DNA of 64,000 nt, taken from NCBI GenBank assembly GCA_035221665.1, contig CM069147.1, forward strand, positions 20,460,001-20,524,000. The letters run 5' to 3'. Shown here piece after piece: positions 665 to 55,110 of this stretch. The stretch is from Okamejei kenojei. Lineage: Eukaryota. Both the position numbers and the translations under genes were made by a program. Under the pieces are notes generated by a model. That model made no database searches and was not told the DNA's origin. It saw only the letters and a list, made by a program, of their open reading frames with translations. The stretch's first letter is position 1. Each line of letters opens with the position of its first letter.

Positions 665-790
665 TGTAACGTAAGAAGGCGACTTTTTGCTTTTAACCAC
701 AAAGTCTTTCCACGACGTCATCAGCAGGTTTGCGAGCACAATTCTGTTCTCTATTATTTGTGAATTTCTTATTAGCTCGAGCTACAGATG
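665..790. promoter_or_regulatory. Conserved upstream module, copy 1 (RUNX-NFAT-CRE-like)
   Basis: ACCACA 696-701, TTTCCA 707-712, CGACGTCA 713-720; aligns with copies at 27330-27470 and 54965-55110. Confidence 0.55.
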
Positions 791-3293
791 CATTCGCTTA
801 AAGGGAAAACGTAAACGTGCAGCATGAGACAAAAACATTCGACCCGACTCGCCCACGCCGACAATATGCCTATCAAGGTGAATGCCATTTTCCTACCCAT
901 ATTCTTCTATTCCTTTCCTATTCACGTATCATACCAAATGCTTTTTAAACGGTGTGATTAGACCTGCCCCTAACTTATACAGGCAGATTACTCCATGTAC
1001 TCACCAAATATATCCATTTTTGTTTTAAACATGCACCTTCTAGTTTTAGTCACGCCTACCCTTTGACAAAATAATTATGATTATCTTCCCTGTCTATGAA
1101 CCTCATAATTTCATGAACCTCTATAGAGTCATCATGCCCCACAAGAACATGTAGATAATGTGCATAAATATACACATATTGGTGCAATTTTCTCGAACGC
1201 ATATCTCATCAATTTCCGTTTTAAATAAGTTATTTTTCAAATAATAAACTAAAGTCCACGCTGTTTTGCAAAAATATATGATTTGGACACTGGGGTAAAA
1301 TCAGTCGTTCTGGTGGGGTGGGAGATTGCAACCTTCACGTGGTCCACCCTGTTTCGACTATTGCAATCAACCCGACGTGTGCAAACAATTAGATCAAATA
1401 TATCAAGTGAACCTACAACTTTAGGCTGTGCACGCCATACGCAAGACAAAATCGTTCTGGTAAGTGGTGGAAAAGAAAAATTTGCTTTTAAAGCACATCC
1501 TGCATGATGAAAGAGACAGAATGGTTCGGGAGAAGAAATTAGACAGTTAAGGATCAATAAGATTAGCAGCCGCGAAATGCAAACATTTTGGATTGTCCAA
1601 AGACCATATTGAGAAGCAGCTAGAGTTGTGAGCACGAATAATGATACAAGGATAGGGATGAGTGAAGCAAAGCAGGCATTTGAAAGCATGGATGATATAT
1701 GTAAGGTTGGTATCTTGCTGGACAAGATATCGTACAGGCAGCCAGCAACCATGTGATGGGTAAACATGATGGCCAAGGAGATGTATACATAGCACACACA
1801 CATCGTTGCGATAGGTTAGGCAAGGTAACCATATTTTTCCCGCACCTCTGCTCTGGGTGCTTCACCTCCTGAACAAAGTGATAAGAGATCCGATGGTTTT
1901 AATGCCACCCTGGCTGTATCAACGGGCCATTCTTCCCAATTACCGCCGACCACGAAAATGCTCCAGCACCTTAATACATTCCTCTGTGCACTTTTACAGA
2001 ATTTTGAACGGGTCACTCCGTTTAAGACATTCGGGCCTGCTCATCCTTCCCCACATATTTTGCTCACGCCTCCTTGAAATACTCAAAATGTTAGGTCTTT
2101 CCATCTCACATTCTGGGACCGAAATAATCTTTCCCGATGAAGCAGCGATTCCCTTGCATTTATTCCGATCTAGCGTATCATATTCAGTTTTCACAACATA
2201 ACCTCCTTTAGATTGAAGAAACCATACGTTGATTGGACGATTTGCCTTCGGGAATCAATGTAACATTTTCAATTTTAGATAATTTGCTTTACCTTCATGT
2301 CACTTAAGAATCGGTGTCGATTGTGTCTACCCCATCTTCTTCATTCCACTTCTGTCCCAGGGGCAGAATCAAATTAGCAACAAATTACACGGCCATGGTA
2401 TGTTCATCAAATCTAACCATGATTTTATTAGTGAATTCTCTTTTATTCCACCCATCATCCTCTTCAAAATCTTGGTATTCAATAGGCTAACGCCTTTCTC
2501 TATTTCACAGTTCTGATCAGGGATCTTTCGTATGAAATATTAAACGTTTTTCCCTCCAAAGTTGCAGTCTGACCTTTTCATCTATCCAACCATTTTAATT
2601 TCCTTTTTTTACATTGTTTTGTCTCAGTTTCTATTTCCCATGTCCCATGAAAGGTTATATGCAAACTATTAATTTCCCCATTCATTTGCAAAATGTAGAA
2701 TATTATGACATTCATGATGTATAGAGTCAAGTAGAATTTATTGACATATGCAGAGGTCTGCACGGTACAGGTCCAAATTAAAGTTTGTATCCAGCAGCAC
2801 CACATGCACATTGACTCAAGCAATCTTATTTTTAGGCTCAGTTTGGTCATGGCTGACCATGGGTGTCTCCAGGGTGCTATACCCTATATGGAGGAAACCT
2901 GTGCGTGACTTTGTTTAACGTGGGGAGACTGGGGCACAGACAGCCACCCCACGATCCTTTACAGATCTGGGCCAGTATCCAGTGGCATGGAGTCACTAAA
3001 CAATTTTCACAAACCAATTATGGAATGAGGTTCACAAACAATGAATGTGTTAATACAGAGCCTTCGTGAAAGAACAGCTGAAGCGTGATGCTGTTTTTCT
3101 GAAGCGATCTGAGCTGATTAAAAAAAATCAGGGCTTATTTTTACTTACCATCAGATACCCTCTACTTTTCAAAGTCGTTCATCATCATGCTGGTTGCAAC
3201 CGAAAGAGCCCCGTGCATCGGTGACCATCATACAAACTTTGTAAACTTGCATTGCCTGTCGACAGATCTGCTGTTATTGGATTTTAAAGTAAA

Positions 3294-3864
3294 GTAGACC
3301 AAGTGGGACCCGTTGGGCCTTGTTCCCCCATCGCGATATTCCATCACTCACCCATAGTTCCCAACTGCGGCAATAACTTGTAAAAATTAAGATCAATGTT
3401 TACGCATCTCACTCTCCCTCTCCAGTCTCCTATTCCCCTCCTCCATTATCCAAACTCTCCCCAGCCGCCACCAGCCCTCCTCTGCTTCCTCCCCTCACCC
3501 CCTCCCTCCCCTCCACTTTCTTCCCCCTCCCCTTGTCCATTACCTCGCCATCCCTCTTCCTTCCCCAATCCTCCTCCCACTGCCCCCTCATCCCCAGCAC
3601 TCCCTCGCCCTCCTCTTCACTCTATTTTCTCTCTCCTCCTCCTCTCATTGACGGGCCTCCCACAACTGGACAGGCAGTTAAAAATAATAATAATAATAAT
3701 AACTTATAAATTATACCATCAATCTGAAGGAAACGTGTTTCATTTACATCGCAGGGCAATGGTGAGTAAGGTGGGCCAAAAATTGTAGCACTATCTGTAA
3801 GGTTATGGCATAGTTTTGGGGAGAAACCCACACGCAAACAAACAAGATGAGTTTTAGTAATATA
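3294..3864 (-). mobile_element. Non-autonomous Helitron-like element (tandem copy 2)
   Basis: Minus strand starts TATATTACTAAAACTCATCTTG directly after the CTAG end of the neighbouring copy; ends ggcccaacgggtcccacttggtCTAC (subterminal hairpin plus degenerate CTAG). Confidence 0.6.
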
Positions 3865-5325: not shown

Positions 5326-5337
5326 TGGAAAGGTAGA

Positions 5338-7491: not shown

Positions 7492-7495
7492 GATT

Positions 7496-10895: not shown

Positions 10896-11033
10896 TCAGT
10901 TACACGTCTTTTTTGAAGTATTCACATCTGCGTACACCGTGTATTTGTTGTTCTTTTTGAATGCTGATGTTTTCTTTGGGTTGTGATGTTGCACAGTTGC
11001 GTAGGTCAGCTTGTCATGTCCTCTTCCTTTAGT
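10896..11033 (-). CDS. Gene A exon 7, terminal cytoplasmic exon with ITIM and ITSM-like motif
   Basis: Acceptor ttactctcgcag; TKGRGHDKLTYATVQHHNPKKTSAFKKNNKYTVYADVNTSKKTCN*. Confidence 0.85.
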   Translation of the reverse strand, partial: TKGRGHDKLTYATVQHHNPKKTSAFKKNNKYTVYADVNTSKKTCN

Positions 11034-14000
11034 CTGCGAGAGTAATTAATGATCGGCGATTAGGCAATCATTCAGTGACGAATTTGAGCATACTGATTTA
11101 AAATAAAATTTTATGCAACCCATCAGTTGTTATTTTCCCAATAGTATCGATTTGCACAGATTATTTTTTGGCTATACGTTTCTGCTTGATAATGAGTTTA
11201 AACCCGATGAGCCGTTCTTGTCCCACAAAATAATTATTTTATTTTTCTTTTATGTCAACTTCGATGTAATTAAGAAAGTTAGGAGAATTGGTGAATGCTC
11301 AAAATTGTATCCGCAGTACTAAATATTTGGCATAATACGATGCCCCTTTTAAAGTGTATTTGTGGGATTGGCGGGAATCCATTTCGCCTGTAGAGATCAA
11401 GAATTGGTTCGCAGACTGAAGCTACCAGTACCTCTCCAACAGACACCGCGGCTCACGGCTTCATCAGTGGCACCGAAATGCAATAGAATATAAACTGGTA
11501 CTACTTCTTATGGCTCTGCGTCCCCAGGTTTTGACACGAGTCCCCTATTCGGTGGATAATTTGAACGTCTTGTTTACTCTCTTTTCCCAGGTCATTGTCT
11601 GGCATTTGTATTTAGTTTCGCTCTGATTATGAGAACTGGGTAGGTTTGTGTGTTCCTAGCTTGCCACACCTTTGCTTCTTCACATACATTTACATTTTTA
11701 CATTTGAATTTAAACCCGAATAAGGAGACGAAAATTATATTTATGCTCTGATGTGCAGTGGGTGATATGTTTTACTTAAATAAAGATTTGCTATTGTGCA
11801 CTTATATTTTCCCTGCAGTTTGGAAAAACAACTACATTTGGAACAATGCTCATTTCATATCTTAATTGCGCTGTCCAATGGGTTTACCTGTGAAGAGACG
11901 ACATGCTGTTCTTCTTGTAGACCATTTGAAAATCCTTTGTTCTCGCTTAGATTCAGTGTAGCATAGGCAGCGGTATGTTCAATTGGTGCTTGTCTCACCT
12001 ATTAGAAAATTACATTTAATTTTGCGGGTGACCAGGCTTATATAGCTGATAGGGAACTCGAATTGTATCTGGGGCTGAAAATCGATGCACACGGGATATA
12101 GAGGAATAGATTAAACATAGAAACATAGAAACATAGAAATTAGGTGCAGGAGCCAGGCCATTCAGCCCTTCGAGCCTGCACCGTCATTCAATATGATCAT
12201 GGCTGATCATCCAACTGTATCCCGTACCTGTTCTCTCCATACCCTCTGATCCCCTTAGCCACAAGGGCCACATCCAACTCACTCTTAAATATAGCCAATG
12301 AACTGGCCTCAACTACCCTCTGTGGCAGAGAGTTCCAGAGACTCACCACTCTCTGTGTGAAGTCTTTCTCATCTCGGTCTTAAAGGATTTCCCCCCTTAT
12401 CCTTAAGCCTGTGACCCCTTGTGCTGGACTTCCCCAACATCGGGAACAATCTTCCTGTATCTAGCGAATTTTGTAAGTTTCCCCCTCTCAATCTCCTAAA
12501 TTCCAGAGAGTATAAACCGAGTCTTCCAGTCTCAAGACAGTACAAGGAATCAGTCTAGTGAACCTTCTCTGCACTCCCTCTAAATAATGTCCTTCCTCAG
12601 ATTTGGAGACCAAAACTGTACGCAATACTCCCAGGTGTGGTCTCACCAAGACCCTGTACAACTGAAGTAGAACCTCCCTGCTCCTGTAAAATCCTTCCCT
12701 TCTTAAAAAGAGGGGTTACATTTGCTACTCAGGACTACTCTCTCACTAATGCATCCACTATTTCCTGAGCTACTTCCTTAAGTACCTGGGATGCAGCCTA
12801 TCTGGCCCTGGGGATTTATCAATCTATTCAATGTACCCAACACCACTTCCCGACTGACCTGGATTTCACTCAATTCCTCCTTTGACCCACAGTTGCTATT
12901 TCCGGCAGATTATTTATGTCTTCCGTGAAGACATAGTTATTCAATTGGTCGCCATATCCTTGTTCCCCTGATTCACCTGTTTCTGACTTACATTTGTTTT
13001 AACTAACTCTTTCTCTTCACATATCTATAAAAACTTTTGCAGTCAGTTTTTATGTTCCCTGCCAGTTTTCTTATAATCTAATTAACATTTCACTTGCTGT
13101 CAATGATTACCAACGATGTCATCTCAAGGAAGGGGTGGACTATCCTAGCGCCACAATGAAGTTGATTTTTAAACAGCCGCTGAAAACAATCCTCCAAATG
13201 GAAACGTTTCCTCAACTCCTCTCATCTCTTTTTGTCACCGCTCATTTCCAGATTCCTACGCACTTCTATGCTTTCCGCATTGGCGACGCCCAAATTCCTT
13301 TCTCTACTGTAGCCTGACTTATTATTGCATTTAATGGCGGAACCAAAGATTGAAAGTCCTAGGCGATGCCCTCATGGGTTCCAAAAAGATAATGTGATCC
13401 TTAGCATTTCATGTTGCCTGATTTGCCATTGCAGAGTGGAGCTCATAGTCCCTTGTTAACTGGAATAGCAAAAACAGCTAAAAATAGGGACGGAGGTCCA
13501 GGGCCTATGCTGATCTGTTTGTGCTAGTAAATTATTTACAGCATGACTGAAGCTGGTACACTAATTCGTAAAAACACCATAAATCAGCTCAAGTAATGGC
13601 ATGGCATGTAAGGGGAAGGAAATCATAATAATTATTTAACAGCGACTATTTGTGCGTCTAATTAAAATATTGCTCACAATTTTGAGTTGTATACTTCAGG
13701 GAGAATTTCGAACACTGGACGAACTTGTTAAAGCATATTATTATGGAATCAATGATAAGTCACTATGGCCTTGGGAAAGTCAAAGGTAGTTCCATCATAC
13801 CAAATACCATTAAATGTTAATTTAAGAAATCTATTAAAATAAAAGCGTGCACCATATTAAGCATGCAGAAGCTATCACCCACGTTAAAGGAAACAAATAA
13901 TTTAGTTTTAATGTCGTTGCCAGAAAAATCTAGGTGTGGAAATTAAAATATGCACATCCTGGAAATCTGAGGTAAAACCAGAAAACATGCTGAAAATCGC

Positions 14001-20000: not shown

Positions 20001-22982
20001 ACATCACCTTTCACTTTAGAATATAATAGGTTATGATCTGGCATGGAATTGTCAAAAGACGTTGAAGCCGATACAACAGGAATATTCAAATTATTATTGG
20101 ATGTATACTTGACGTAACCTGAAAAAGAAATCATGTTTTCATCCTGCCCTAGAGTATTCCACGATATTATGGAATAAATCCGATTTATAATATTTCTGCT
20201 ACGAATAATCCCTATTTTGAAACAAGAGGAGACATTTCACCTACCGGCTCCCTGTTCTGACGTATTCCTACAGAGGTTACGTTATGGCCTAGAGGAATGA
20301 AATAAAAATTAAATAAAACAACTTGAATTGTAAAGATTGATCTGTAGATTTTGACATTATTCTTCTCATATTAATCAAATTTACTGCAGAAAGTAAGAAC
20401 GATTGCATTTTTAAATATCCGATGGCGCACAACAGCACCAATTGTCACAAACTAGCATGCAACGCATCTTATACTCTTTCGCGATGTTGCGCCCACTGGA
20501 ATTAAATTTTAACTGACACTTTAAAATTTGGATGGTTTATAAGGAACCGTGTCCATGTCAAAACAGCAATGTAATATAAACATATGGAGATGATTGATTT
20601 CGCTTATTGCCACAAAGCCACAGTTGTTTTTTCTTCAAAATCGTAATCTTCCATTGCATTAATTATCCATCGCACTGGATGTTTGAAGAATTCCTTAATT
20701 TGAAAATATATGCATAGGTGATAATTGAATTAATCAAATTCCAATCTGAAATAATTCAATTTGAAGATCCATCTTATATTATCACAGATATATATCAAAA
20801 CCGCTTCAGAAATCTCTTTACCTGTCCATCTAAGTTATCTTTACTCCTCTGTGAGCAAACACCATTGACATATCCATTCTCATTTTAACCATATAAATGA
20901 TTATTATAAATTATCAAGATACTTACCGTACCATATCTTTAAACTGAGTCTTATCACGATTATAATCAGAACTAAAATTACCGATCCACCTACTGCGTAT
21001 ACGATAATCTGTTTGCGATCAATTCCTGGTGGATCAACAGAAAATTAAGAAACTGTAAAGAATTTATACATTTTAGAACAAATATACAAACGGTAGTCAA
21101 CAAAGTAAATCATTTCGTAGGTGCATTTTAATACCCACATCCGAAAGTTTGAAAGGTATATCAGAAGGCACCAGATGGAAGTTAGTAATGGAGTCCACAG
21201 GACAAACAAATGCAATTGTATTGTGCCCATGTGCGGAGAGCTGCTTACTAACGTTAAACGGAATTTAGGCTGAATCTTCATATATTTCACCAGACAGCGG
21301 ATATATGCATATGCCAGGACGTTTTTTTTCTCATTACAAACACTATATTAATTCAGTTGGTCAATACATCTCACACGGATTTCCTTACGAGAACCGATGA
21401 AGCACAACAGATTTCACAGAGCATGCAAGTGTTGCTTTCAAGCGAATAAATGCGAGTCACGTTTACCCCTTCCCTCCGTGTACGGAAAGCTGTCCAGTTA
21501 TTAATCTGATCGAATTTGATCGACCGCCCCAATATCATGTGTAACTGGCTCCAGTCTTACCTTGGCCCAGGGTGTAACTGAAACTGGCCGCCACCTTCAG
21601 GGAGATATGTGACACCAGACAGGTGTAAATATCTTTGCCCTCGCCAGGCTGCGTTATTTCCAAAAAACTAGAAGCCACAAACAATCCTTCTCCGCTCCGT
21701 CTTTTCACAGTTTCGATTCCAGTGCGAATTTCCTCGTTATTTCTTAGCCAGAATATTTCTACTTTCTCCGGATAAAAGTCGTCCGTCTTGCACACAAGTG
21801 TCCGTGGAGAGCCATGTCCTTCAGCAGGAACAATTTTCAAGGGAGTTGGGGGATCTTAATTTAAAAAAAAACATTTCTCGGGTGTTCGCTTTCCATTTTA
21901 TTGTAAATATTTACATTTTATCTCGCCACCGAGTCGTATTTCCCACGATCAAATTATTTAATATTTAAACTTCCCAGTTTGTCGTTAATTTATCGCGCCT
22001 TTCATAGCGGACAGCCGGACGAATTCCGCCAAGATACAAAGCGGGTGAATTTAAGGAGTGCCAACAGAATTTAAGGAGTTCCAAAATAAACTCTGTTCTG
22101 AATGGACGTTCCCCGGTATCGCGCCAAAGTGTTTGCCAGAAGCTTATTTATAAGTGGCCATATTCGGATCATTCATATATTGCAAAAAAATTGAGCCATG
22201 ATAATCGAAATATAACAGATTTGCATAGTGTGGTGACATGAAGCGGTTATACATGAAGATTAATGATTAATCTCGTTAGCTCTTTAAGTAGTATATGAAC
22301 TAAATCTCCTCAACCTGGTCAAAAAGACCCATTTCAAAATTTAATCACTATACTCCGACCTGCCTCGAGCTAACCAATTATGAGGTGTTTGCGCAGTAAT
22401 CAACCAGAACCAGAACCAGAACCAAATATGGGTTTGAACTGCCGATCACAACCATTTACCAGCACGTGAACCAAAGGCTGGGACATATTTCTCGCGCATT
22501 GAATGCTAATATTGAAACATTGTGGAATCTATTACAAGCAATCTACGAGCGCACTTATTCAATATCAGTGTGTAGGAAAGAACTGCAGATGCTGGTTTAA
22601 ACCGAACATATGCTGGAGTAACTCAACGGGCGTACAGGCAACTTTCTCTTCGGAGGAAGGAATGGGTGACGTTTCTAATCGAGGTTTGAAGAAGGGTCTC
22701 GACCCCAAACGCCACTCATTCCTTCTACCCAGAGATGCTGCCTGCCCCGCTGAGTTACTCCAGCATTTCGTGTCTCTATACAAATCAGTTCCATCTGTTG
22801 TGCCAACTTGGCAACAGTGAATCGACAACGCTAGATCGGCGTTAATGATGATAGCTTGCAGAAGCCAAATGAGGGAAAAGAACAAGCTCTGTTTCTCGCT
22901 GTGCAGATTCTATTCATTTAGGTCCTATATTTCGTATTAACGCGAACTCCTTCCGTTCGAGCTGCAGTCGGTGCCTAACTGA

Positions 22983-23018: not shown

Positions 23019-24445
23019 CGGTTGTTGGGTTGCTTTGTCAGTTTATTACAAGCAATTCATTTAGAAAGTTTGACTTAATTTACTTAATCAGGATTATCTT
23101 TAACGATGAAATAAATCTTACTGTTTATTCCCGGACTTTAAGCAGTTTCAGTTGAGATGTTGTTTACTTCTTTTTTTCCCCCTACGGTGCCAAATTGGTG
23201 GGACAGACTGAAGTTGTGCATTAGAAAATTAGTGTCAAACGTTTTCAAAACAAACAAAAAAATATTACATTGAAGTCAGCTTGGAGTCAGCAGCCATGAG
23301 ACCCACATGTTGGAACACCAAGGTCCTTGGGTTTCAGCTGCACATTGGTCTTCTGAGGTTCTAAAGCTGTCGATGTCGAATGGCAGACTCTACGATCGAC
23401 CTATTAAAATTGTTCCTGCTCTCTTTTCTTAGTGATGAGAAACCTGGACATCACACTCCAGCCATTCAAACTAACAGGAATATTATTTCAATATCGCATT
23501 GCAAAACATTTCTAACCACACCTCAGGATGAATTCCTTCCATCTTAGCACTTACCCGTTCTTAGCGATAAATCCATCTGGGAGATTGGCTTAAAATTCGC
23601 GACCGCTAAATGAATGGGCTCCAATGAAAAGGAGTATCGCAAATTCTCGTACAATGAACAGAATAACCCTCAATACCCACGCGTCCCACAAGTGCTACTC
23701 GACCTGGTGATTATATACATTGTGCTTTGTTTCATTTCGAATTACCAGTCCCTGTAATGCATTTATTTAAAATTGTTATTACCGGGTATTTATCAACAGG
23801 CGATTTTTCATATTATCCTCGCGACTTGGTTTTACTTTACAAATGACATAGAACTGAAATTTGCTTATGTCCCTAACACACACACTCACCAAATACAGTG
23901 ACCTGGCTGCCACTTCCATTCCCGATAACCCGATGCTGGAAATTTACTTGACAGTAATACAGACCGGAGTCAGCGACACGCGCATGTTGGAGAGTAAATG
24001 TTCCGCTTCCCGAATCTTTCGTAAATTGTTTTCTACTGTCCGATTCCAGGAATGTCTTCATGCCGCCCTTCCACCAATAAACGTCAATAGTGTCTTTCGA
24101 TATTGGAAATTTGCAATACATTATAGCAGTTTCTCCGCCGCCAACGTCCAAGTTGATAGGGAATTGAGACACTCTGCTCGAAGAGACTTCGGCGGCTGTC
24201 GGGAAAAAAAACAAGAACAATGGAAACAGTTGTACACGCTGGACAGAGAAAAGAAGAACCAACTGCCGAAAAGCACGAAACAATTATAAACCCACGAGGG
24301 CCTAATAGATAAACCTAATAGCTCGAAACCAGGTCCGAATTTTCGAAAAATAATACTTAAACCAGAAATGGCACACATATTTAACTATACCCTGCGTAAG
24401 TATAACCAGAAGAGCCATGGACCAAACTGTAACATTCGCCGACAT
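10896..24445 (-). CDS. Gene A: non-rearranging antigen-receptor-like IgSF receptor, L-VJ-C1-TM-cytoplasmic ITIM/ITSM, 348 aa, 7 coding exons
   Basis: Exons 24445-24391, 24195-23890, 21854-21561, 21025-20927, 20288-20245, 11998-11888, 11033-10896; all GT-AG; phases 1,1,1,1,0,0 join into one open frame of 1047 nt including the stop. Confidence 0.85.
11888..11998 (-). CDS. Gene A exon 6, cytoplasmic, with YxxL motif
   Basis: attttctaatag|...CAG|gtaaac; 111 nt, phase 0-0; VRQAPIEHTAAYATLNLSENKGFSNGLQEEQHVVSSQ. Confidence 0.8.
12115..13080 (-). mobile_element. CR1 LINE 3' fragment with many internal deletions
   Basis: (aacataga)n tail at 12114-12140; matches the reverse complement of CR1 ~30300-32180 with many gaps. 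Confidence 0.85.
14330..15074 (+). mobile_element. Degraded Rex/Babar RT fragment
   Basis: Similar to 62740-63150 (ttccaaaccattattc..aaactaatc; acttcctgatccacag; aaagcacgccaaagcctc). Confidence 0.55.
15075..19701 (+). mobile_element. DIRS1-like tyrosine-recombinase retrotransposon, 5'-truncated and degenerate, in gene A intron 5
   Basis: Remnants VIGKLVA, DIDLLASRLN, ARSALSSYL, HSTRAAS, GWAS; internal complementary region ~19360-19475 is the reverse complement of the right end 19617-19701; left terminal repeat absent. Confidence 0.9.
16290..16519. repeat. Two tandem ~120 bp units in the DIRS 5' region (further degenerate GC-rich repeats at 15075-15600)
   Basis: cacagactcaccaccg..ggagcctgccagat...cctttgtccc at 16290 and 16410. 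Confidence 0.85.
20245..20288 (-). CDS. Gene A exon 5, juxtamembrane cytoplasmic
   Basis: tttcattcctctag|...CCG|gtaggt; 44 nt, phase 1-0, bridges the TM exon to exon 6; (G)HNVTSVGIRQNREP. Confidence 0.7.
20927..21025 (-). CDS. Gene A exon 4, transmembrane
   Basis: ctgttgatccaccag|...|gtaagt; 99 nt; GIDRKQIIVYAVGGSVILVLIIIVIRLSLKIWY; homologous to gene B TM exon. Confidence 0.9.
21561..21854 (-). CDS. Gene A exon 3, C1-set Ig domain
   Basis: LVCKTDDFYPEKVEIFW...YTCLVSHISL, canonical C1 motifs; 294 nt, phase 1-1, donor gtaaga. Confidence 0.95.
22568..22800. mobile_element. Inverted pair of Penelope-type terminal repeats forming an imperfect palindrome
   Basis: 22570-22680 is a minus-strand copy and 22685-22795 a plus-strand copy of the repeat seen at 27866-27992. 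Confidence 0.6.
23890..24195 (-). CDS. Gene A exon 2, germline-joined VJ-type V domain
   Basis: ttttttcccgacag|...|gtgagt; 306 nt; B-strand C, VYWW, DSGLYYC and J-like G strand IGNGSGSQVTV in one exon. Confidence 0.95.
24391..24445 (-). CDS. Gene A exon 1, signal peptide
   Basis: ATG at 24445; MSANVTVWSMALLVILTQ; 55 nt, phase 1; same length and position as gene B leader. Confidence 0.85.
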
Positions 24446-39900: not shown

Positions 39901-41140
39901 GAGCCACTTCCTTAAGTACCCTGGGATGCAGACCATCAGGCCCTGGGGATTTATCAGCCTTCAGTCCCATCAGTCTATCCAATACAATTTCCTGCCTAAT
40001 GTGGATTTCCTTCAGTTCCTCTGTCACCCCAGATCCTCTGGCCACTACTATATCAAGAAGATTGTTTGTGTCCTCCTTAGTGAAGACAGATGCAAAGTAC
40101 CTGTTCAACGCATATGCCATTTCCTTGTTCCCCATAATAAAGTCACCTTTTTCGGTCTTTAAGGGTCCAACTTTGGTCTTAACTATTTTTTTCCTCTTCA
40201 CATACCTAATGAAGCTTTTACTGTCCTGCTTTATATTCTTGGCTAGCTTATCTTCGTACCTCATCTTTTCTCTCCGTATTTTCTTGTTGGTTATCTTCTG
40301 ATGTTCTTTAAACATTACCCAATCCTCTTGCTTCCCGCTCATCTTCGCTACATTGTACTTCTTCGCTTTAAATTTTATACTGTTCCTGATGTCCCTTGTC
40401 AGCCATGGTCATCCCTTTCTCCCCTTGGAATCTTTCTTCCTCCTAGGAATGAACTGATCCTGCACCTGCTGTATTATTCCTAGAAACACCTGCAATTTTT
40501 GTTCTTAACAACAGATTGCGTACTCACTTTAACCTGTTTAGCACTTTCAACTAAGAATTCTTACCCTTACAATTCCTTAGTTATATCCATACTGACTCCA
40601 TGTCTCCTGTTTCAATGTCACCCCTTGCAAGGGACTGAATTTCATTCCTCATCAACAGGGCAACCCCACCCCCTCTGCCCACCTGCCTGTCTTTTCGATA
40701 GGAGGTATACCCTTGAATATTCAGTTCCCAGCCCTGGCCCTCTTGCAGCCATGTGTCAGTAATTCCCCCAACATCATACTTGCCAGTTTCTAACTGAGCC
40801 TCAAGCTCGTCCACTTTATTCCTTATACTTCGCGCATTCATATACAGTACTTTGACCTCCGAATTCACTTCCCCTCTCGCAATTGGCCCTTACATTACTC
40901 TGTTGTCCATTCTCAAGCTTTCCTTCCCATTAATTCGAGAATCTTTTGTATTTTTTCCTGTAGCCACTTCCCCTTCGACTCCATCTTTATACCCCCAATT
41001 TGTCAATCATTCCCCCCCACTATTTAGTTTAAATCCACATGTGTAGCCCTAGCAAACCTGCCTGCCAGAATATCGGTCCCCCTCCAGTTAAGGTGTAACC
41101 CGTCCCTTTTCTACAGGTCACCCCTACCCCAGAAGAGATC
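36981..41140 (-). mobile_element. CR1 LINE (ORF1 end, partly deleted APE, RT, 3' tail), interrupted by a nested LINE
   Basis: ORFs 40581-40868 (MNARSIRNK), 39449-40342, 39074-39409 ([10 protein letters not shown]), 37070-37357; (agacaat)n tail. Confidence 0.95.
37888..39174 (-). mobile_element. 5'-truncated RLE-clade non-LTR retrotransposon (Hero/NeSL/R4-like)
   Basis: ORF 38064-38786: CPLC...EHLLSSC knuckle, RHD, RPDM, ELIVPW, KHAKYQEL restriction-like endonuclease motifs. Confidence 0.9.
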
Positions 41141-45510: not shown

Positions 45511-45609
45511 CATTTTGTGCCTTTACTTGGAGTCTTATCAAGATAATGGCCAAAACTAAAATTGCCAAGACACCCACTGCGCATCCGATAATTAGATTTT
45601 TATCTGCGT
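45511..45609 (-). CDS. Gene B exon 4, transmembrane
   Basis: tttctcttgatccataag|...|gtgaga; DADKNLIIGCAVGVLAILVLAIILIRLQVKAQN. Confidence 0.9.
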
Positions 45610-48600
45610 CTTATGGATCAAGAGAAACAGGGAAAATGTGAACGATATAACATATTGAAAGATATACACATTTAGGAATTTAGCGATAACAAAGAACACG
45701 TCAATGGTTTTTGAGCTTCTTGCTCCATGATTGATTAGTGATTGTGAAACATTGATCTCTCATTACAAATAAACACGGGTCGTTTCTAGCCATTGTTCCC
45801 GTATTTAAATTCTAATCAGTTTACACATATACACCCGCTCTTGGCTGCAAGTACTGACAATCTTACCTGCTTTGACGATGTAGCTGAGAGCTGTTGGCAC
45901 CTCAAGGGAAACATGAGATACCAAGCAGGTGTAAACGGCGTCGCCCCAAGCAAGTTTAATTTCTTCCAATAAACTGGAAACCTCATACAATCCCTCTGTG
46001 CTTCTATTTTTTACCGTTTCTATTCCGGTCAGAATTTCTTCGTTATTTCTCCGCCAGGAGATTTCTATTTTTTCCGGATAAAAGCTCGCCGTTTTACACA
46101 CAAGTTTCCGAGACTGCGATGAAGTTCCTTTAACCGGAATGATTTTCAACGGAGTGGGGAGAGCTTTAACAGAGAGACAAATATATTATGCATTTTGTTC
46201 CCTTGGAATGGACGTTTACTCGTTTGTCTCACTTGAGAATTGTATCACAATGTTATTATGACGAGTTAACTGCGCTATTGTTTGAACCGTTTTAAGTTAT
46301 CCTATTGTTATAAACTGCTTTCCCGTCGGCAGGAAAGTGACGGGGTAAATTAAAAGCACGAAGAATGCGAGTCTACGAACTAGTGACCTAGAAAGACGCC
46401 GCTGCTCGAAATAGGAGTATAAGATTTAATGCGGGTGAAATTGGTATTAGACATTTGTGTTTCCCTCAAAACGAGGTGGTTTGTCGAGCTGTTTTAATTT
46501 CAGATATTGTCACGGGAACAAAATGAAATTGTCACAGCTGTCTATAATCAAGTGGTAAGATGCGGATGAATGCTGGGTCCTTGCGAGTGTTTGGGCAGTA
46601 CTGTATTTTACTTCGGAGTCACGTGAGTGACTACATGAAGAACCCCGCCTCACGCTGGCAAACGGCATTACGTCGACGCTGACGGCGGAAGGAGGAGCTG
46701 CAGTAAGGAGCAGCTCCTCGCAGCGGTCGGAACGGCCCCGCAGGTAAGTGCAGCAAAGTCGGGATGTTTTTTAACGTACGCTGGGTGGGTCCAGCAGTAA
46801 AAATAAAGTAAAATAAAAAGTCAGAGTCACGTTTAAAGTGCTGTTTAGCACAGATTAAATGAAAGAAATGGAGAAATCGGCAAAGAAAATTCGCGGGTAA
46901 AGAGAGCTTCCCGGGGTGAAAATAAAAATACGGGAAAAAGCTAGTGCGGATCCGGTTCCGATACCGGTGGCCGCTGATATACCCGTTAGTGAGTTCTAGA
47001 TTCTCCAGAAGTTATAACCACGGAGAGAAATGCTCCTAAAAATGTAAAAGAAATCTGAGAGGCCCGTGGTTCTGATGACTCTGATACTGAAAGTCCTCCA
47101 GATAATTAAACTATATGGGACTAATAATGGAGCATATGGAGAAAGTTCTCCAAAAATTATGAGACTAGGGGTCACAGTACCCAGAAGGTTCCCAAAAAAG
47201 CCCTGAGGGGTTTAATTATTCTGATATGGCTGTGGGCCTAATTGGGAGTTGGAACTCCGGACCCAGGATTTGGGCCGAAGGAAGTCTCATGGGATGAAAT
47301 CCCAATTGATTTAGGGCTGCAGAAGGCAGACCCTGCTGATGGTGATTTGCATTTGAAAACACACCACAAAAATAAAAGAAAGGCCAAATGTGCCTGAGAT
47401 AGCAAAATAATTTGCTATATATGAAGGAAGTGGTGAGGCTATGGAAGAAAACCTAGCAGCCAACATTAATATATGGGATCTCACCAACTTCATGATTCTG
47501 TGATGATTGAAACATCAGAATTATAAACGCACAGGAAATTGTGCCTCATTGAAAGTGCCTACGGTTTATCCGTTGATTTGGGCATCCATAACCCCAAATA
47601 TGAGAGCTTAAGAAGTGAGGTTCAAAAATCCTCACAAATTATTCTGCTGCCATTATGGCTTTTGGGGAGATGGATAAGTTTAAAAATTATTATACTGCAC
47701 AGCCCAATACTTACCCGTATTCGGGGAAAAGGAGACCACCACGCTCATATGGAGAGGTATTAAAGACTTGTTCTATCTTTAAAGAAACTGCGGATTAATC
47801 TCCAGTTGGAGGGAGATTACAAAAGTTTTATAAAGACTGGCTTACTATTATTTCTGATCGGTTTATTTTTACAAGCAGTTTCAGGAACCACTATTACATT
47901 TAAAGAAGGGGTTAATCCTCCAGTACAGATAAACCTGCCTATGCTTTCGTGTTTACTGCAATTGGAAAAGCAGAGATTAATGTGGAAATTGACAAATTAT
48001 CTGAAAAGGGGTTATTGAAAAAACTTATGAACACGAGCATCAATTGTGTCTAAGATATTTCAAAAGACATAAAAAGATGGTGATTGCAGAATTATTCTGG
48101 ACCTTACAGATCTAAATAAGTGGTAGAATACAAATTTTTAAATGGAAAATATTTAATATCAGCAGGTTGTTATATGGCTACGATTGATTTGGGAAAAAAC
48201 GCCTATTATTCTGTACCAATACATCAGTTTCTGGAGGTACTTAAAATTTAATTGGCTGGGACAATTTATGGCAGTTAAAGCTTTGCCAAATGGATTGAGT
48301 TCAGCTTCTAGGCTCTTTACTAAACTGTTGAAACCAGTTTTAGCCCAATTAAGAGTACAAAAACACATCGTTATGGCTTATCTCGATGACATTCTAATCA
48401 TTTATGGCAATCAAGAGTCAGCTGAGAACTAGTTTCAGTACAAAAGCTTTGTTAAAGCTAGGTAGAATTGATTCATCCAATTAAATTCCAGCTGCAGCCA
48501 GCACAATCAATTAACTATTTGGAGTTTGTAATTAACTCAGAAACTATGTTAATACTTTACCAACAAAGATAAAGTTGATGATTTTGGTGACTTGTAATAA

Positions 48601-51600
48601 TCTCATTCACAAACTGATCCTTCCATCCGAAAAAATAGCGAAAACTATTGGTAAACTAGTAGCAGCTTTTCCTGCAGTAGAATTTGGTCCATTACATTAT
48701 CAAAATCTTCAAAGGGACAAAATAAGAGCTCTCAAAGAGAGGGCAGGCCACTTTGATAGGCCTATGCAATTAACAAAAGAAGTTTTGTTGGAATTACCAT
48801 GGTGGGTTAAAAATATCCCACAAGCTGCTAAAAACATTCTGATTAAACAGCCTGAAATTGTTTATAAACAGATGCTAATGCTCTCGGATGGGGGGGGGGT
48901 AATAGATTCAGCCTCCAGTTGTGGAGGTAGATGGAAAGTCCAAGAAGAAACGTTTCTTCAAACTTATGGTATTAACTATTTAGAGTTATTAGTTGCTTTC
49001 TATAGTCTTAAAGCATATTGCTGTTCAAAAAAGGGTCTACATGTATTAATACAGTTAGACAATAAAACGGCTGTTGCATATATTAATCACATGGGGGAGT
49101 CAGATCAGTATCATGTGATTGTCTGGTCAATGAAATATGGCAATGGTGTATTGATCGCCAAATTTGGATTTCAGCAAACTACATTCCAGGTAAAGACAAT
49201 GTGGTGGCAGATAAAAGATCAAGGATATTTAAAGATAACACAGAATGGATGCTTAATCCAGCAATATTTAAGAATATTGTAAACTCAATTTGGTTTACCA
49301 GATATTGATTTGTTTGCATCAAGGCTTAATCATCAATTGCCTAAATATGTGTCTTGGGAACACGATCCAGATGCAGTAGCAGTAGATGCTTTTTCATTGA
49401 ACTGGGGGAATATGTTCTTTTATGCTTTTCCACCTTTTGCTTTGGTTCAGCAATGTCTGAAGGAATAGAACAAGATTCTGCCACAGGATTGTTGGTAGTT
49501 CCAAATTGGCCAACACAACCTTGGTTCCCATTAATGCTGAATATGATTAAAGAACCATATATGTCAATTCCTAACTGTAGTGATATTTTGATTAATCCAG
49601 TAACCAAAGAAATTTATGCATTATATGCATATATGAATTTATTAATCTGCAGGTTTTGACCAGACCACTACAGGAGCTGGGATTGTCGGACAAAACTATG
49701 GAGGTTATAGTCGCATCATGGCGAGATAACACACAAAAACAATATATGACACATGTTTAGAAATGGGATGAATTTTGCACACAGTCAAATATTTCTTATG
49801 ATACGGTGAATATTGCATGTTTGATATTGTGATACTGTGATATTGCATGGAAAATGTATTGGAGCTCCTTGCTAAATTGCATTTTGAGCAACATTTAAGT
49901 TACAGTGCTACTAACACTGCACGCAGTGCCTTATCATCTTATTTAGGACTTATGTCTGACCAGAAATCAATTGGATCACATCCACTAATATCTAGATTCA
50001 TGAAAGGAATCTTTAATATTAATCCACCCAAACCTAGATACACAGAGATTTGGGATGTGAGAATTGTACTTACCTTAATTAGATAGTGGACTCCAATTGA
50101 AAGATTGTCATTGGAAAGATTAACATTCAAATTAATAATGTTAATATCATTGGTTTCAGCTCAAAGAGTGCAAACTTTACAAATGTTGCGTTTAGACTGT
50201 ATGCATGTGACTACAGATAACATTGTGTTCTATGTTTACGATCTGATCAAACAAAGCAGACCAGGGAGATCTGGAGCTAAGGTAACCTTTCAAGCTTATC
50301 CTATTTTGATCCTACTTTGTGTGTGGTTAAACATTTGAATCAATATGTTAAAGTTACTGAAACTCTTCGAGGAAATGAAAAAAAGTTGATGATTACGCAT
50401 AAAAAGCCACACACAAAAGCTTCAGTTCAAACTATCTCAAAATGGTTGAAACAGGTGTTGCTTTTAGCAGGAGTAGACACTGATGTGTTCAAATCTCACT
50501 CCACCAGGGCTGCAGCTGCGTCCGCGGCGAAGGTGCGGGACGTACCACTCGAGCGTATTTTAAAAATCGCAGGGTGGAGTAAAGAAGAAACTTTTTCAAA
50601 GTTCTACAATAAACCTGTTCACACTATGACAAGCTTTGGCCACGCGGTGTTGGGATCAATATAATTACCTGCTTTGTATACTATTGATTACTATAACCAA
50701 GTTATGTAGTCACTTATATCTTTTATCACTTGTAATCATTCCCTCGGATATAAGGAGGGTTATTATATGTTCTTTAAACCATTAAAAAGTTAATTATGGA
50801 AAGAACTAATATTAGTCTGGTTTCTCATGTATGTATTTACTTAGCCGGACTGTCGTACTAATTAAATACTACGACATAAAAAAACACAGAAAAGCTTTAA
50901 AATCTTCACGTAGTCACTCACGTGACTCCGAAGTAAAATAGTAAGATTAAACGAGAATTTACCAGTTCGAAGTTTGATCGTTATTTTATGAGGAGTTACG
51001 ATGAGGGATTACGTGCCCTCCACTCCCACCCTCATAAAATAAATGATCAATCTGGTAGTTCTAAGTCTTTTATGAGCCTTACTATGTTACTTCGGCTATT
51101 TGGTGTTCTGTGTTTTTCATGCCGCTGCTTTGAAGTATGCCATTTGCCAGCGTGAGGCCGGGTTCTTCACGTAATCCCTCATCGTAACTCCTCATAAAAT
51201 AACGATCAAACTTCGAACTGGTAAATTCTCGTTTAGTCTTACTATTTTAATGCGCGGGATGGAGGTTTACGAGGGTACAAATTTCATCAGGATAAATGTT
51301 TCCCGAACGCGAAGGGAGTACTGGAATATTTCTCAATGTGGGGAAGTGGCATACTGGAAGTTAAGCGTCGCTAAATAAATAATCATACGCACGGAAGTGG
51401 GGGAACTGAACATGCCCCTTCTCTCATGTTGGAAGAACTCAGCGAATTGGCCAGCATCTGTGGAGGCATTGGACGGGTGACATTTCCGGTCGGGACCTTT
51501 CTTTGGAAAAAAGTTGTTCCAGTGCTTTTTTTTAGCTCCAGGATAAAAACAACTTTCGTTTCTCGCTTGAAAATTACCACACACATCTGCTCAGTATGAA

Positions 51601-52615
51601 CATTTGCGAAAATATTCCATTCGCAATTTGAAGCCGCGTATCCAAAAAGATGCAAATCCAATTCTAACAACATTTCAAAATCAGCACTTCGGATTTAAAG
51701 CAGATTCGAATATTATCGCGATAATTCTAGACAGTGACACAGAATTGTGTAATGTGAGTCGACAGGGCTACGTCAACTTTGATGTAAGAATGACCAGGAG
51801 AAAAACGAAGAGGCAAGCAGGACAAACTACTTTCCACGCGACGGATTCAACCCGACCTGTTGAATATTCCCTGTATCTGCTGGTTTACCTGAGTCTTGCA
51901 CCCTCTGTATCAATTTATTTCCGAGGTACAAATTGAATTCGGCGTCGGATAGCTCTTATTGAGTACTAATATTTTCATTTTCTCGCGATCACTGAGTTTT
52001 ATCTCCATGGTATGGGGATGATAACATGGACTTCCACTGTAAGGATACTTACCGAATACAGATAGCAGCGTGCCACTTCCATTTCCGATAGGTTGCTGCT
52101 GCTGTTTGATTTGACAATAATACTTCCCGGAGTCTGCGACACCGACATTCAGCAGAGTAAACGAACCGCTGCCCTTGTTTATATGAAATTGCTTTCTGCT
52201 GTCTGGCCATATGAATGCATTCTCGCTCTCTCTCCACCAGTAGACGTCAGGAATAACTTGTAATATGTGATATTTGCAGAAAATGGAAACATTTCCACCG
52301 ACGGCTTCATGCAAAACAATCGGGAATTGTTCCACTTTGCTTGACGATACTATGGCATCTGCCAAAAAAAAGGAAGATCACGGGAAGTTGTTGTTTAAGG
52401 TGATAAAATGCAAAAATAAAAAGCAAGGGACATAAAATACAGAAATAAAATTAAGATCCAGCATAAATCGAATTCGACAGGGATTACAATCAAGTGTGTA
52501 GTGCCTGATCAAGGTGACATTTTCCAAAGTAAGATTTTGTATTCAGGAAAATAAGCGTACCTTGCCAAACTATAATCAGGAAAGCCATGTAGCTAACTGC
52601 AACCTCCGCAGACAT
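45511..52615 (-). CDS. Gene B: paralogous VJ-C1-TM IgSF receptor (leader to TM confident, tail unresolved)
   Basis: Exons 52615-52561, 52358-52053, 46163-45867, 45609-45511; all GT-AG, phase 1; exon sizes match gene A (55/306/297 vs 294/99). Confidence 0.88.
45867..46163 (-). CDS. Gene B exon 3, C1-set Ig domain
   Basis: LVCKTASFYPEKIEISW...YTCLVSHVSL; 297 nt; donor gtaaga. Confidence 0.95.
46606..51248 (+). mobile_element. Structurally complete but degenerate DIRS1-like retrotransposon in gene B V-C1 intron
   Basis: RT (MAYLDD), RNase H (NYLELL, LDNKTAVAYIN), methyltransferase-like (PNWPTQPWFP), tyrosine recombinase (HSTRAAA, GWS); inverted termini; ICR ~50903-51015 complementary to both ends; TTT(T) junctions, no TSD. 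Confidence 0.95.
52053..52358 (-). CDS. Gene B exon 2, germline-joined VJ-type V domain
   Basis: ttttttggcag|...|gtaagt; 306 nt; SIFC, DVYWW, DSGKYYC, IGNGSGTLLSV. Confidence 0.95.
52561..52615 (-). CDS. Gene B exon 1, signal peptide
   Basis: ATG at 52615; MSAEVAVSYMAFLIIVWQ; 55 nt, phase 1, donor gtacgc. Confidence 0.85.
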
Positions 52616-54964
52616 ACTACAGAGAGAGAATTTACCACGGCAAAAGAAAATGGTGTCCTCAAAGAGTGTTCAATAATTAAGATTTCATTACTGTATGTAT
52701 AAAAGCATGCGGTCCCCACGACGGACATCACATGACAGTACAATAGATTTCACCACATTTCTGTTTGGTCGAAATAAGATGTCAGGATTAGGTCTCCTCC
52801 CACCGACAATCAAGGGATGCCACTTAACACTTGGTCATTAAAATATGGCTGCAGACCTTCTCGACGAAGCTGCCATGCAATCTAGGGAGAGGAACAAAAA
52901 TAAGAACAATCTGTGCAGAAAACACTTTCCTGTTATGGGATGCTGGCTCGAAGGACCGAATGGCCTAGTCATGCACCTATTTTTCTATGTTTCTCTGCTG
53001 ATCACAATGAAGAAAGATTTTAGGGATCATGCCGCAAATTATTTTTTGAAAAGCATAATGAAGACGCTAACACAAAGATGTGATAATCAATGCAGGTTAA
53101 TCGCTGCCTTATGATTCGGCGGAGTGTTGCCTCAGTGACAGCGTTTCTGGTAACCAAAGGGTTATGATGTCTTGCCCCATTCCAAGGACTGCAATAGGGC
53201 GATATTATATTCAACAATGGAAGACTTGCTGTGCTTCCAAAAGTTAGTCAAAATCGTCTGTATTGCTGCTCAATAATAGCAAATATTTATACTCCAGCCA
53301 ACATCGAGATGAATTGATGACTAACACGGTGATATTCGACAGCTAAGCACGAAGCCTTCCCATTGCGTTAATGACGAGATTTAGTACATTCATGAACAAT
53401 CTAATTGTCAATAAACACGCCAAGGAACTCGGGGTATGGAATGGTTGACATTAAGACTTTCAATCTTGAAACATGGATTTTTCTTTGCGCAATTATATAT
53501 TGGAAAATGTTTAACTATTTAAAAAAATGTTTATAACTGATTAATCTATAGTTCAAATATGTTGATATATTTTTTAAAGTGCATTAAAAATAATTGTTTG
53601 GCCACTTTGACCAAATCTACGGATTGGCTGTCAGATTACTTTTGCATATATAAATTGGGTATTTTGGCCAGGTTTCTAGATCTCCGTTTACATTATCAAG
53701 CTGTTACAGTGTGTAATGACTGATTCGCAGCGAATTTCCCAAATGATCTCCGCAGTCTCGCATCAGGAGAACTGGTAGAGTAAGTTTTTCTGTGCTCCTG
53801 TTAACAAGGTCACTAGCGAGCCCTGTTCTATTGCTGCTAGCCAGAAAATGAACACCGGTGTTTGCTATAGAAATGCTGAAGATATTAGAAACAATCTGCA
53901 CAATTGGCTGCAACCTCTGAGTTCGGCAGATAAACGGGTCAAGAAGCATTCATGACTTCAATATGCAGAAATATTAAATCCGATGCACCCTGACTTGCTG
54001 ATAACTTCCAGCATTCATTTTTTAAATGTTTAATCGTTAGCATCTACAGTATTTTTCTTCCATCCACCCCACTCCCCCCACGACACACACACGCATACAC
54101 ACACACCCCACTTCGTGTCCATCCATATATAATTTATCAATGTAGCGAAATATTATGAACATTATAAACATGTCGTTCAAGCGTAAAGTCCAAGAGAATA
54201 TCAGTTATCACATCTTGGCAATCTGAGTAAATGATCCTTCTCACGACTCTTAAGGCTCTAACTGATTCCGCATTCAACCAACAGTTACCAGATATTCCTA
54301 TTTTTGTCTACTGACTCCCATTTGAAACCCCTTCTCTGCTCATTTTGTTTTAGCATAGAGTGCAACATATTCTTCAGTTCTCCAAACGAAATATTACAAA
54401 ACATATACTCAAGGTCTCTGGTCTGTGAGTATAAATATGAAACCCGTCAAAATACGTTCAATTGAGTATCAACTGACTTAGTAGCTGAGAATTCCACGTA
54501 AGTACAATGTAAACATTATCCGCATTTTTCGGATATTTTAAGAAGTGTGTTTTTATCGAAACAAGATAATTTGTTACTTGAAGTATATAACCTGAACATT
54601 AAATAACATCACCAAAATTCCAAAGGTAACATCAATATCTGTTTCAGTTGAAAATTATCGGCAATTTTGGGAAGTAATCCATCCAATGACGTGACCGATC
54701 ACATTAGGCTGACAGAACAAAATAGAACATTTTGTCCAGCATCGATTTTTGTACTGCCCGGTACAGCAACAACAACTGATCGTCTGATGTTCTAAGCGAG
54801 AGGTTCGCACTTGAGAAACTGGCATTCAACTGATTTCTCGATAAGCGGTTCACATTTTTTCAAAATAACATGCCCTGGATGGAGGAAACACTGACATTTT
54901 CAGAAATAGTTTACCAAGTAAATTAGTTACATAACATTTCTTACCCTTTAATTTAACGTTAAAA

Positions 54965-55110
54965 AAGATAACGTGAGAAACTGCAATGTACTTGTTTGAG
55001 GCCTCAGAAACCTATAACCGCAGAGTTTCCATGATGTCACAAGCATATTCGCGGATGCAGTTGTTGACTCTTGGCTTGCGTTCACTTCTTGTAGCTCGAT
55101 CTGCAAATAC
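54965..55110. promoter_or_regulatory. Conserved upstream module, copy 3, ~2.4 kb upstream of gene B ATG
   Basis: ACCGCA 55017-55022, TTTCCA 55026-55031, TGATGTCA 55032-55039. Confidence 0.55.

What the first reader, a model, noticed from the sequence alone, without database searches (positions are those of the whole stretch)
665..55110. Three copies of a RUNX-NFAT-CRE-like module at ~27 kb spacing; copy 1 predicts a third paralog left of the window
Seen: ACC(A/G)CA-N3-5-TTTCCA-(C/T)GA(C/T)GTC(A/G)..AGCA..T(C/T)GCG..CA(A/G)TT occurs at ~696, ~27379 and ~55017, all in the same orientation. The last two lie 2.9 and 2.4 kb upstream of the ATGs of genes A and B. The motif cores are kept while flanks diverge. 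Known: ACC(A/G)CA is the RUNX core, TTTCCA (TGGAAA) the NFAT core, TGACGTCA the CRE/ATF site; a CRE-like decamer is conserved in TCR V-beta promoters. Inference: a duplicated lymphocyte activation-responsive enhancer or promoter, with the gene array continuing beyond position 1.
Basis: partly seen in the sequence, partly recalled or inferred. Interest (0 to 1): 0.72.

Follow-up and report, generated by a model that had tools for sequence, protein, structure and literature searches.

The report
Repeated enhancer of ray immune receptors
A short DNA motif cluster has been copied and preserved upstream of most members of a row of immune-receptor genes in a cartilaginous fish; it is likely a per-gene enhancer like those of mouse natural-killer receptors, but its activity is untested.

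Summary
The motif string is at 696, 27379 and 55017, and the exact pattern has 5 hits in the 2.76-Gb genome, all within 161 kb of this locus. The predicted third paralog exists, with its ATG 10.7 kb left of base 1. The genes are minus-strand, non-rearranging VJ-C1-TM receptors (SIRP-like by database name). Gene A has ITIMs; none were found for B. A profile trained on the three window copies finds four more, all in this subfamily's array. Only a core of about 31 bp is conserved above neutral levels (23 of 29 columns vs 51 of 142 in alignable flank). Five of seven V-bearing genes keep their own copy, one lost it, and one lies near a decayed copy beside a deleted gene. The 27-kb spacing is just gene spacing. 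Best reading: a per-gene distal enhancer (RUNX, NFAT/Rel-type and CRE-type sites) working like Ly49 Hss1/MAP1. Binding, cell type and activation response are untested, and no RNA holder was listed. The scan had earlier notes on the neighbouring gene pair, none on this element.

The parts
695..726 (+). Core copy 1 (AACCACA, TTTCCA, CGACGTCA, AGCA); belongs to the paralog whose ATG lies 10.7 kb left of the window
727..800 (+). Tail of copy 1; homologous between copies but near neutral identity
27378..27408 (+). Core copy 2 (GACCGCA, TTTCCA, TGACGTCG, AGCA), 2934 bp upstream of the gene A ATG
55016..55045 (+). Core copy 3 (AACCGCA, TTTCCA, TGATGTCA, AGCA), 2402 bp upstream of the gene B ATG
24391..24445 (-). 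Gene A leader exon (coding part, ATG at 24445)
23890..24195 (-). Gene A single-exon VJ-type V domain (ends GNGSGSQVTVF)
21561..21854 (-). Gene A C1-set exon
20927..21025 (-). Gene A transmembrane exon, uncharged core
20245..20288 (-). Gene A short cytoplasmic exon (inferred from splice sites, phase and likeness to ray homologues)
11888..11998 (-). Gene A cytoplasmic exon with AAYATL
10896..11033 (-). Gene A last coding exon with ITIM-type LTYATV and TVYADV, to the stop codon
52561..52615 (-). Gene B leader exon (coding part, ATG at 52615)
52728..52736 (-). Gene B proximal E-box GTCATGTGA; TCAYGTG is found in 6 of 7 paralogs (degenerate in A at about 24557-24565); likely part of the proximal promoter
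52053..52358 (-). Gene B VJ-type V exon
45867..46163 (-). Gene B C1-set exon
45511..45609 (-). Gene B transmembrane exon; no ITIM exons detected downstream

Best explanation
The module is a short core of about 31 bp, conserved above neutral levels and copied with each duplication of a non-rearranging VJ-C1 receptor gene, that likely acts as that gene's own distal enhancer. Shown: one copy per gene unit, same strand, 2.4-4 kb upstream where there are few insertions, confined to one subfamily. Inferred: RUNX binds RACCRCA, an NFAT or other Rel-domain factor binds TGGAA(A), and an ATF/CREB-type bZIP binds the RTGACGTCAY-like site. An invariant TGCT next to the CRE is unassigned. The RUNX-to-TGGAA spacer varies (3-5 bp in the four best-kept lineages), so the factors likely bind side by side rather than as a rigid complex. 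They would act on the E-box promoter near the leader exon in leukocytes, as Ly49 Hss1/MAP1 does. Signal dependence on calcium and cAMP/MAPK is plausible but is the weakest step.
For: Linkage: 5 of 5 exact-pattern hits and 4 of 4 hits of a longer pattern lie in this array. A profile trained only on the 3 window copies finds 4 further full-length copies (E 1e-15 to 3e-8) in 624 kb, and none with E under 1 upstream of the 17 more distant V paralogs. Constraint: three-way invariant columns are 23 of 29 in the core vs 51 of 142 in the alignable flank. Five-way invariants are 17 of 31 in the core, 5 of 29 at four-fold sites and 237 of 573 at all coding positions. Held-out test: two copies not used to define the motif keep 37 of 40 core columns vs 39 of 56 other columns (P=0.005) and 13 of 21 four-fold sites (P=0.005). 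In 5 of 6 lineages the RUNX site varies only at the two degenerate R positions (consensus recalled). The copy beside a gene that lost its L, V and C1 exons is the decayed one: 15 of 20 core vs 24 of 28 other columns. Paralog lineages are old: one groups with Narcine, Mobula and Hypanus proteins at 98/95. A proximal E-box is present separately in 6 of 7 genes. Precedent: PMC9135403 and PMC11156856 (passages).
Against: There are no expression, chromatin or binding data. The ITIM-bearing paralog at C17:20.421 Mb has lost the core and keeps open V, C1, TM and tail exons; its leader carries three 1-bp indels that may be real or assembly errors. The paralog at 20.389 Mb has only the decayed relic copy, 10 kb away. 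With the decayed copy included, the held-out test is 52 of 60 vs 63 of 84 (P=0.06). Over 100 bp the module averages 0.63 identity, about the same as the 3' end of intron 1 (0.62). No copy is a perfect CRE; the copy at 20.553 Mb has mismatches in all three sites. Presence does not follow inhibitory vs activating type. Acceptor-like sites precede the ATG in 6 of 7 genes, so an upstream first exon is not excluded. Other species' genomes could not be checked. Two of the seven copies are probably one lineage or an assembly duplicate.
Confidence: 0.62

Rival explanations
1. The module is an upstream promoter (main, alternative or bidirectional, as first proposed for Ly49 Pro1) whose short non-coding first exon splices into the leader exon.
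For: Pyrimidine-rich AG sites lie 1-56 bp before the ATG in 6 of 7 genes, and donor-like GT sites lie 50-110 bp gene-ward of the RUNX site in 5 of 6 copies. CpG o/e is 1.0-1.4 at the three window copies vs 0.62 for the window. One Ly49 MAP1 gives transcripts that splice into downstream exons (PMC11156856).
Against: The donor-like sites are not at a shared position or sequence, and there is no conserved TATA. The acceptor-like sites are at different offsets. A conserved E-box block near the ATG looks like a promoter of its own.
Confidence: 0.17
2. It is a functional cis-element, but the bound factors or the direction of effect differ from the names given (a silencer, a myeloid or non-immune enhancer, or TEAD, NF-kB or Maf instead of NFAT).
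For: The invariant letters are TTCCA, and one copy reads CATTCCA. The geometry is not the canonical NFAT:AP-1 composite (recalled). The invariant AGCA is unexplained. The closest named family, SIRP, acts largely in myeloid cells (PMC12975943 passages).
Against: The RUNX site varies exactly as the RUNX consensus allows; TTTCCA is intact in 4 of 6 lineages; the CRE flanks fit RTGACGTCAY (recalled consensus).
Confidence: 0.12
3. It is a neutral relic: a patch of the duplicated segment that happens to have drifted less.
For: Neutral sites are not saturated: four-fold identity is 258 of 480, and about 450 bp of flank still aligns at 45-58% between three copies. The core was picked after the fact.
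Against: The held-out copies keep the core (37 of 40) far better than other columns or four-fold sites. The core is more invariant than the coding exons. It decays where its gene was deleted.
Confidence: 0.07
4. It is a fragment of an old dispersed repeat.
For: A 19-bp sub-pattern with up to 1 mismatch has 29 hits genome-wide (control 4), 23 of them off this locus. The genome could not be searched with a profile.
Against: The two exact off-locus hits lie in retrotransposon integrase-like coding sequence and share only about 26 bp. Longer patterns and DNA searches hit only this array. Each full-length copy sits upstream of a paralog or a paralog relic, on the same strand.
Confidence: 0.02

Closest known systems
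Ly49 (Klra) Hss1/Pro1/MAP1 upstream enhancers of mouse NK receptors (PMC9135403, PMC11156856; passages read)
   Same: One paralogous element a few kb upstream of most genes of a tandem paired-receptor array; conserved Runx site; decay in some paralogs; transposons inserted between element and promoter; element outliving a dead gene.
   Different: Unrelated receptor fold (Ig VJ-C1 vs C-type lectin) and lineage; NFAT- and CRE-type sites abut here; presence does not track inhibitory genes; no chromatin or knock-out evidence here.
TRBV promoter CRE decamer (PMC2685407 passages; PMC2119020 abstract passage)
   Same: A TGAxxTCA-type site repeated upstream of tandem V-domain genes; exact TGAxxTCA in 2 of 6 independent copies.
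   Different: The TRBV motif is about 80-120 bp upstream in the core promoter of rearranging segments; this one is 2.4-11.4 kb upstream of non-rearranging genes.
SIRP family (PMC12975943 passages) and joined-VJ receptors NKp30, PRARP, NITR, UrIg (PMC11599192, PMC10751288, PMC12227049 passages)
   Same: Single-exon VJ-type V domain, C1-set domain, inhibitory tyrosine motifs, tailless or Arg-bearing sister genes. Ray and shark relatives carry automatic names 'PTPNS1 (SIRP-alpha)-like' or 'NCR3LG1-like'.
   Different: One C1 domain instead of two; not on the MHC class I contig; orthology to SIRP not shown; ligand unknown.

Membership tests
Ly49 Hss1/MAP1-type per-gene enhancer (works like) | Paralogous element kept a few kb upstream of most genes of the array | tested here: met
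   5 of 7 V-bearing genes have their own copy at 2.4-11.4 kb; copy 1 would be about 4 kb from the V exon without two insertions
Ly49 Hss1/MAP1-type per-gene enhancer (works like) | Conserved Runx motif | tested here: met
   RACCRCA in 5 of 6 lineages by sequence; consensus recalled, no matrix scan
Ly49 Hss1/MAP1-type per-gene enhancer (works like) | Motif intact at inhibitory genes, decayed at activating ones | tested here: not met
   Intact at ITIM-bearing A, at B (no ITIM exons found) and at the Arg-TM paralog; deleted at the ITIM-bearing 20.421 Mb gene
Ly49 Hss1/MAP1-type per-gene enhancer (works like) | Open chromatin with enhancer marks; deletion silences the linked gene in cis; variegated expression | not testable with these tools
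   No chromatin or single-cell data; no RNA holder listed
Ly49 Hss1/MAP1 (descent) | Sequence homology to MAP1 | not tested
   No mouse sequence available; the receptor families are unrelated, so analogy is assumed
TRBV promoter CRE decamer | TGAxxTCA core | tested here: inconclusive
   Exact in 2 of 6 independent copies, 1-2 mismatches in the rest
TRBV promoter CRE decamer | Position about 80-120 bp upstream of the gene | tested here: not met
   2402-11417 bp from the ATG
Canonical NFAT:AP-1 composite element | bZIP site a few bases 3' of GGAAA on the same strand (recalled) | tested here: not met
   The CRE-like site abuts the 5' side of TGGAAA in all copies that have both
Dispersed repeat | Many copies unlinked to the genes | tested here: not met
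   Searches hit only this array; the tool warns that DNA searches do not prove rarity, and no genome-wide profile search was possible
Structured RNA family (Rfam) | Match to a covariance model | tested here: not met
   4 loci scanned; 2 weak hits far below threshold, neither on the module
SIRP | One V and two C1 domains | tested here: not met
   One V and one C1 exon in A and B
SIRP | ITIM-bearing member with tailless or charged-TM sister genes | tested here: met
   A has LTYATV and TVYADV; no tail exons found for B; Arg in the TM of the left paralog
SIRP | CD47 binding and conserved synteny | not tested
   Neighbouring genes were not annotated
NCR3/NKp30 | Single-exon joined VJ domain | tested here: met
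   306-bp exons ending in a GxGSG-type J motif
NCR3/NKp30 | Linkage to the MHC | tested here: not met
   15 of 15 MHC class I matches are on C30; the array is on C17

The most novel reading that the evidence does not exclude
Cartilaginous fish independently evolved the Ly49 regulatory design on an Ig-type, non-rearranging VJ-C1 paired-receptor array. Each gene carries its own RUNX-NFAT-CRE enhancer, older than the split of ray orders, that sets the probability with which individual lymphocytes switch that receptor on. This would give a combinatorial receptor repertoire without recombination, tuned by transposons that displace or delete single enhancers.
Probability: 0.18. Interest if true: 0.72.

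Novelty: new member of a known kind. Interest (0 to 1): 0.42.

Why it matters
I found no description of this element or of cis-regulation of this gene family in the searches run (three key papers were not held). It is a compact, testable candidate enhancer for a little-studied family of antigen-receptor-like genes in the oldest lineage with adaptive immunity. The locus holds natural experiments: one copy deleted, one decayed, one pushed 6.7 kb away by a retrotransposon. If the element drives variegated expression, the Ly49/KIR mode of repertoire building would be shown to recur in a third, unrelated receptor family. If it is a plain tissue enhancer, it is ordinary co-duplication.

Tried and rejected
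No RNA holder was listed. Three probably-DNA contig runs gave depth of about 1 or less over the tail of copy 2 and no cover over copy 3; this is not used as evidence. The large internal similarities at 30120-32181 and 57408-58706 are reverse-transcriptase LINE copies, not genes A and B. An LLYSKV motif near 20000 that I first took for gene A's ITIM lies in an intron; the real tail exons are at 10896-11998. Rfam gave nothing on the module. The word-index protein search for longer relatives gave none of 528 candidates, and the Atlas gave no result. PDB searches gave only generic Ig, SIRP and UrIg2 hits. Two exact 19-bp hits on C24 were rejected as chance matches in integrase-like coding sequence. 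Weak profile hits at C17:20407978 (E 0.26-0.48; 4e-4 with the wider model) and others were left out of all counts. The MHC S-X-Y module, ETS-CRE and AICE composites were considered from memory and do not fit in order or spacing. Sliding 100-bp local alignments showed only a modest peak at the module. Kinlein 2021, Ohta 2019 and Ohta and Flajnik 2015 were not held and may already describe these genes. No supplements were read; the MAP1 alignments in the supplement of PMC11156856 could bear on the motif comparison.
Full report
Observation. The three copies are present as described. That control is circular, because the pattern was written from these copies. The window is G000:C17:20460001-20524000 of a 2.76-Gb genome. 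The RUNX-to-CRE pattern has 5 hits genome-wide, all on + within C17:20.354-20.515 Mb; the reversed control has 1. A longer pattern has 4 hits, all here, control 0. DNA searches with copies 2 and 1 returned only themselves and one partial sister copy; the tool warns that this does not prove rarity.

The genes. A and B are on the minus strand. Each has a leader exon, a 306-bp single-exon V domain with a joined J-like end, a C1-set exon and a TM exon. A has three further exons in matching phase, ending in LTYATV and TVYADV. No tail exons were found for B. The closest database proteins are from rays and sharks and carry automatic names such as SIRP-alpha-like or NCR3LG1-like. They are not canonical SIRPs, which have two C1 domains (PMC12975943, passages). 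They are not on the MHC class I contig (15 of 15 matches on C30). They belong among the joined-VJ receptors listed in PMC11599192 and PMC10751288 (passages). The organism is a cartilaginous fish, probably a skate or ray.

The prediction. The array continues left. V exons lie at C17:20448717, 20421134, 20388716 and 20366625, and one lies to the right at 20548927. Copy 1 is 11,417 bp from the ATG of the first of these. Comparison with its 98%-identical twin shows two insertions in between: about 6.7 kb, with terminal repeats and a 5-bp target duplication, and about 1 kb of LINE. Without them copy 1 would be about 4 kb from the V exon, close to A, B and the right-hand gene (2934, 2402 and 3962 bp to the ATG). 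Spacings elsewhere are 23-38 kb, so the 27 kb figure is gene spacing.

Linkage. A profile trained only on the three window copies found four more full-length copies in 624 kb of fetched sequence (E 1e-15, 7e-10, 8e-10, 3e-8), all on the same strand and upstream of a paralog or paralog relic. It found none with E under 1 in the roughly 10 kb or more upstream of the 17 more distant V paralogs. Two of the four (20354224 and 20376910) are identical in the core. The gene beside the first is full of homopolymer indels and looks like an unpolished duplicate, so I count them once: six independent lineages. Of seven V-bearing genes, five have their own copy. The gene at 20.421 Mb lost 302 bp including the core, with about 4.8 kb of transposon-like DNA in its place. 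The gene at 20.389 Mb has only the copy at 20399706, which sits next to a lone TM exon of a deleted paralog.

Constraint. Neutral sites are not saturated: four-fold identity is 258 of 480, and flanks still align at 45-58%. Residual homology is therefore a real rival. Over 100 bp the module averages 0.63 identity, like the end of intron 1 at 0.62. The signal is in the core. Three-way invariance is 23 of 29 columns vs 51 of 142 in the gene-side flank and 23 of 66 in the tail. Five-way invariance is 17 of 31 vs 5 of 29 four-fold sites and 237 of 573 coding positions. In the non-circular test, columns shared by the three window copies are kept by two held-out copies at 37 of 40 in the core, 39 of 56 elsewhere (P=0.005) and 13 of 21 at four-fold sites (P=0.005). 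The third held-out copy, beside the deleted gene, keeps 15 of 20 core and 24 of 28 other columns. Including it weakens the test to P=0.06, and its decay fits relaxed selection. One paralog lineage groups with Narcine, Mobula and Hypanus proteins at 98/95 support (deeper nodes are weak), so the duplications probably predate the split of those ray groups.

Motifs. All factor names are recalled consensus sequences; no matrix library was available. RACCRCA is present in five of six lineages and varies only at the two R positions. TTTCCA is intact in four, ATTCCA in one, and lost in one. The CRE-like site is never perfect: one mismatch in four lineages, two in one, three in the decayed copy. AGCA after it is invariant in all six and unassigned. 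In the genes' direction the order is TGCT, CRE, TGGAAA, 3-5 bp, TGYGGT. This is not the canonical NFAT:AP-1 geometry. The TRBV decamer comparison fails on position (about 80-120 bp in PMC2685407, passages).

Enhancer or promoter. Six of seven genes have TCAYGTG 65-124 bp upstream of the ATG in an alignable block, which suggests a proximal promoter separate from the module. There is no conserved TATA or donor gene-ward of the module. Acceptor-like sites do precede most ATGs, so an upstream first exon is not excluded. No RNA holder was listed.

Mechanism. I commit to a per-gene distal enhancer bound by RUNX, a Rel-domain factor (NFAT most likely) and an ATF/CREB-type bZIP, acting on the proximal promoter in leukocytes (0.62). 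Linkage and constraint are shown. Binding, cell type and inducibility are inferred. The nearest working model is Ly49 Hss1/Pro1/MAP1: an element about 5 kb upstream of each gene, bound by Runx3 and needed in cis (PMC9135403, passages), conserved upstream of most paralogs, decayed in some and displaced by transposons (PMC11156856, passages). Unlike MAP1, presence here does not follow inhibitory type. It is intact at ITIM-bearing A, at B and at the Arg-TM paralog, and deleted at an ITIM-bearing gene whose leader may or may not be broken.

Verdict. It is a new member of a known kind. I did not find it described in the paper searches (two searches were for the analogues). Three papers on shark NCR3 and VJ-C1 genes were not held, and no supplements were read. 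Earlier scan notes concern the neighbouring paired genes, not this element. Interest 0.42.

Noticed in passing
G000:C17:20446596-20446685 and 20439400-20440610: The paralog served by copy 1 has Arg-Trp in its TM and degenerate tail exons, while its twin at 20.421 Mb keeps the ITIMs: a likely activating/inhibitory pair.
   Followed up: partly
G000:C17:20453265-20459939 (L021 3265-9939): A 6.7-kb LTR retrotransposon (looks BEL/Pao-like; family recalled, not searched) with two terminal repeats and a 5-bp target duplication lies between copy 1 and its gene.
   Followed up: partly
G000:C17:20424700-20429490 (L018): Transposon-like DNA (looks DIRS-like with a nested Tc1-like element and an L1 piece; recalled, not searched) replaces the module core of the 20.421 Mb gene.
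   Followed up: partly
G000:C17:20328500-20343600: A copy of the 20.367 Mb gene full of homopolymer indels, probably unpolished or falsely duplicated assembly; the TM and tail exons found here may belong to the 20.367 Mb gene.
   Followed up: partly
G000:C17:20397980-20401190: Relic of a deleted paralog: decayed module, lone TM exon and a piece of the last tail exon.
   Followed up: yes
G000:C17:17.16 Mb, 20.58-20.76 Mb, 25.37-25.86 Mb: At least 17 further single-exon VJ genes of the same superfamily on this chromosome, several as near-identical pairs in opposite orientation; no module found upstream of them.
   Followed up: partly
window 33173-36657: A 1.74-kb tandem duplication at 98% identity.
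   Followed up: no
window 28100-32180, 36980-41130, 55700-58710, 61560-64000: Several reverse-transcriptase LINE copies; the one at 28100-32180 retains long open frames.
   Followed up: no
window 19351-19701 and 50893-51249: Two related elements with 81-bp inverted ends, each with long decayed reading frames nearby (15600-19000 and 46600-50900); they look like DIRS-type retrotransposons (recalled) inside introns of genes A and B.
   Followed up: no
window 776-787 and the equivalent tail position in other copies: A palindrome TAGCTCGAGCTA, partly kept in four other copies, about 80 bp from the core; factor unknown.
   Followed up: no
G000:C17:20407978: Weak possible further copy of the core with no gene assigned.
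   Followed up: partly
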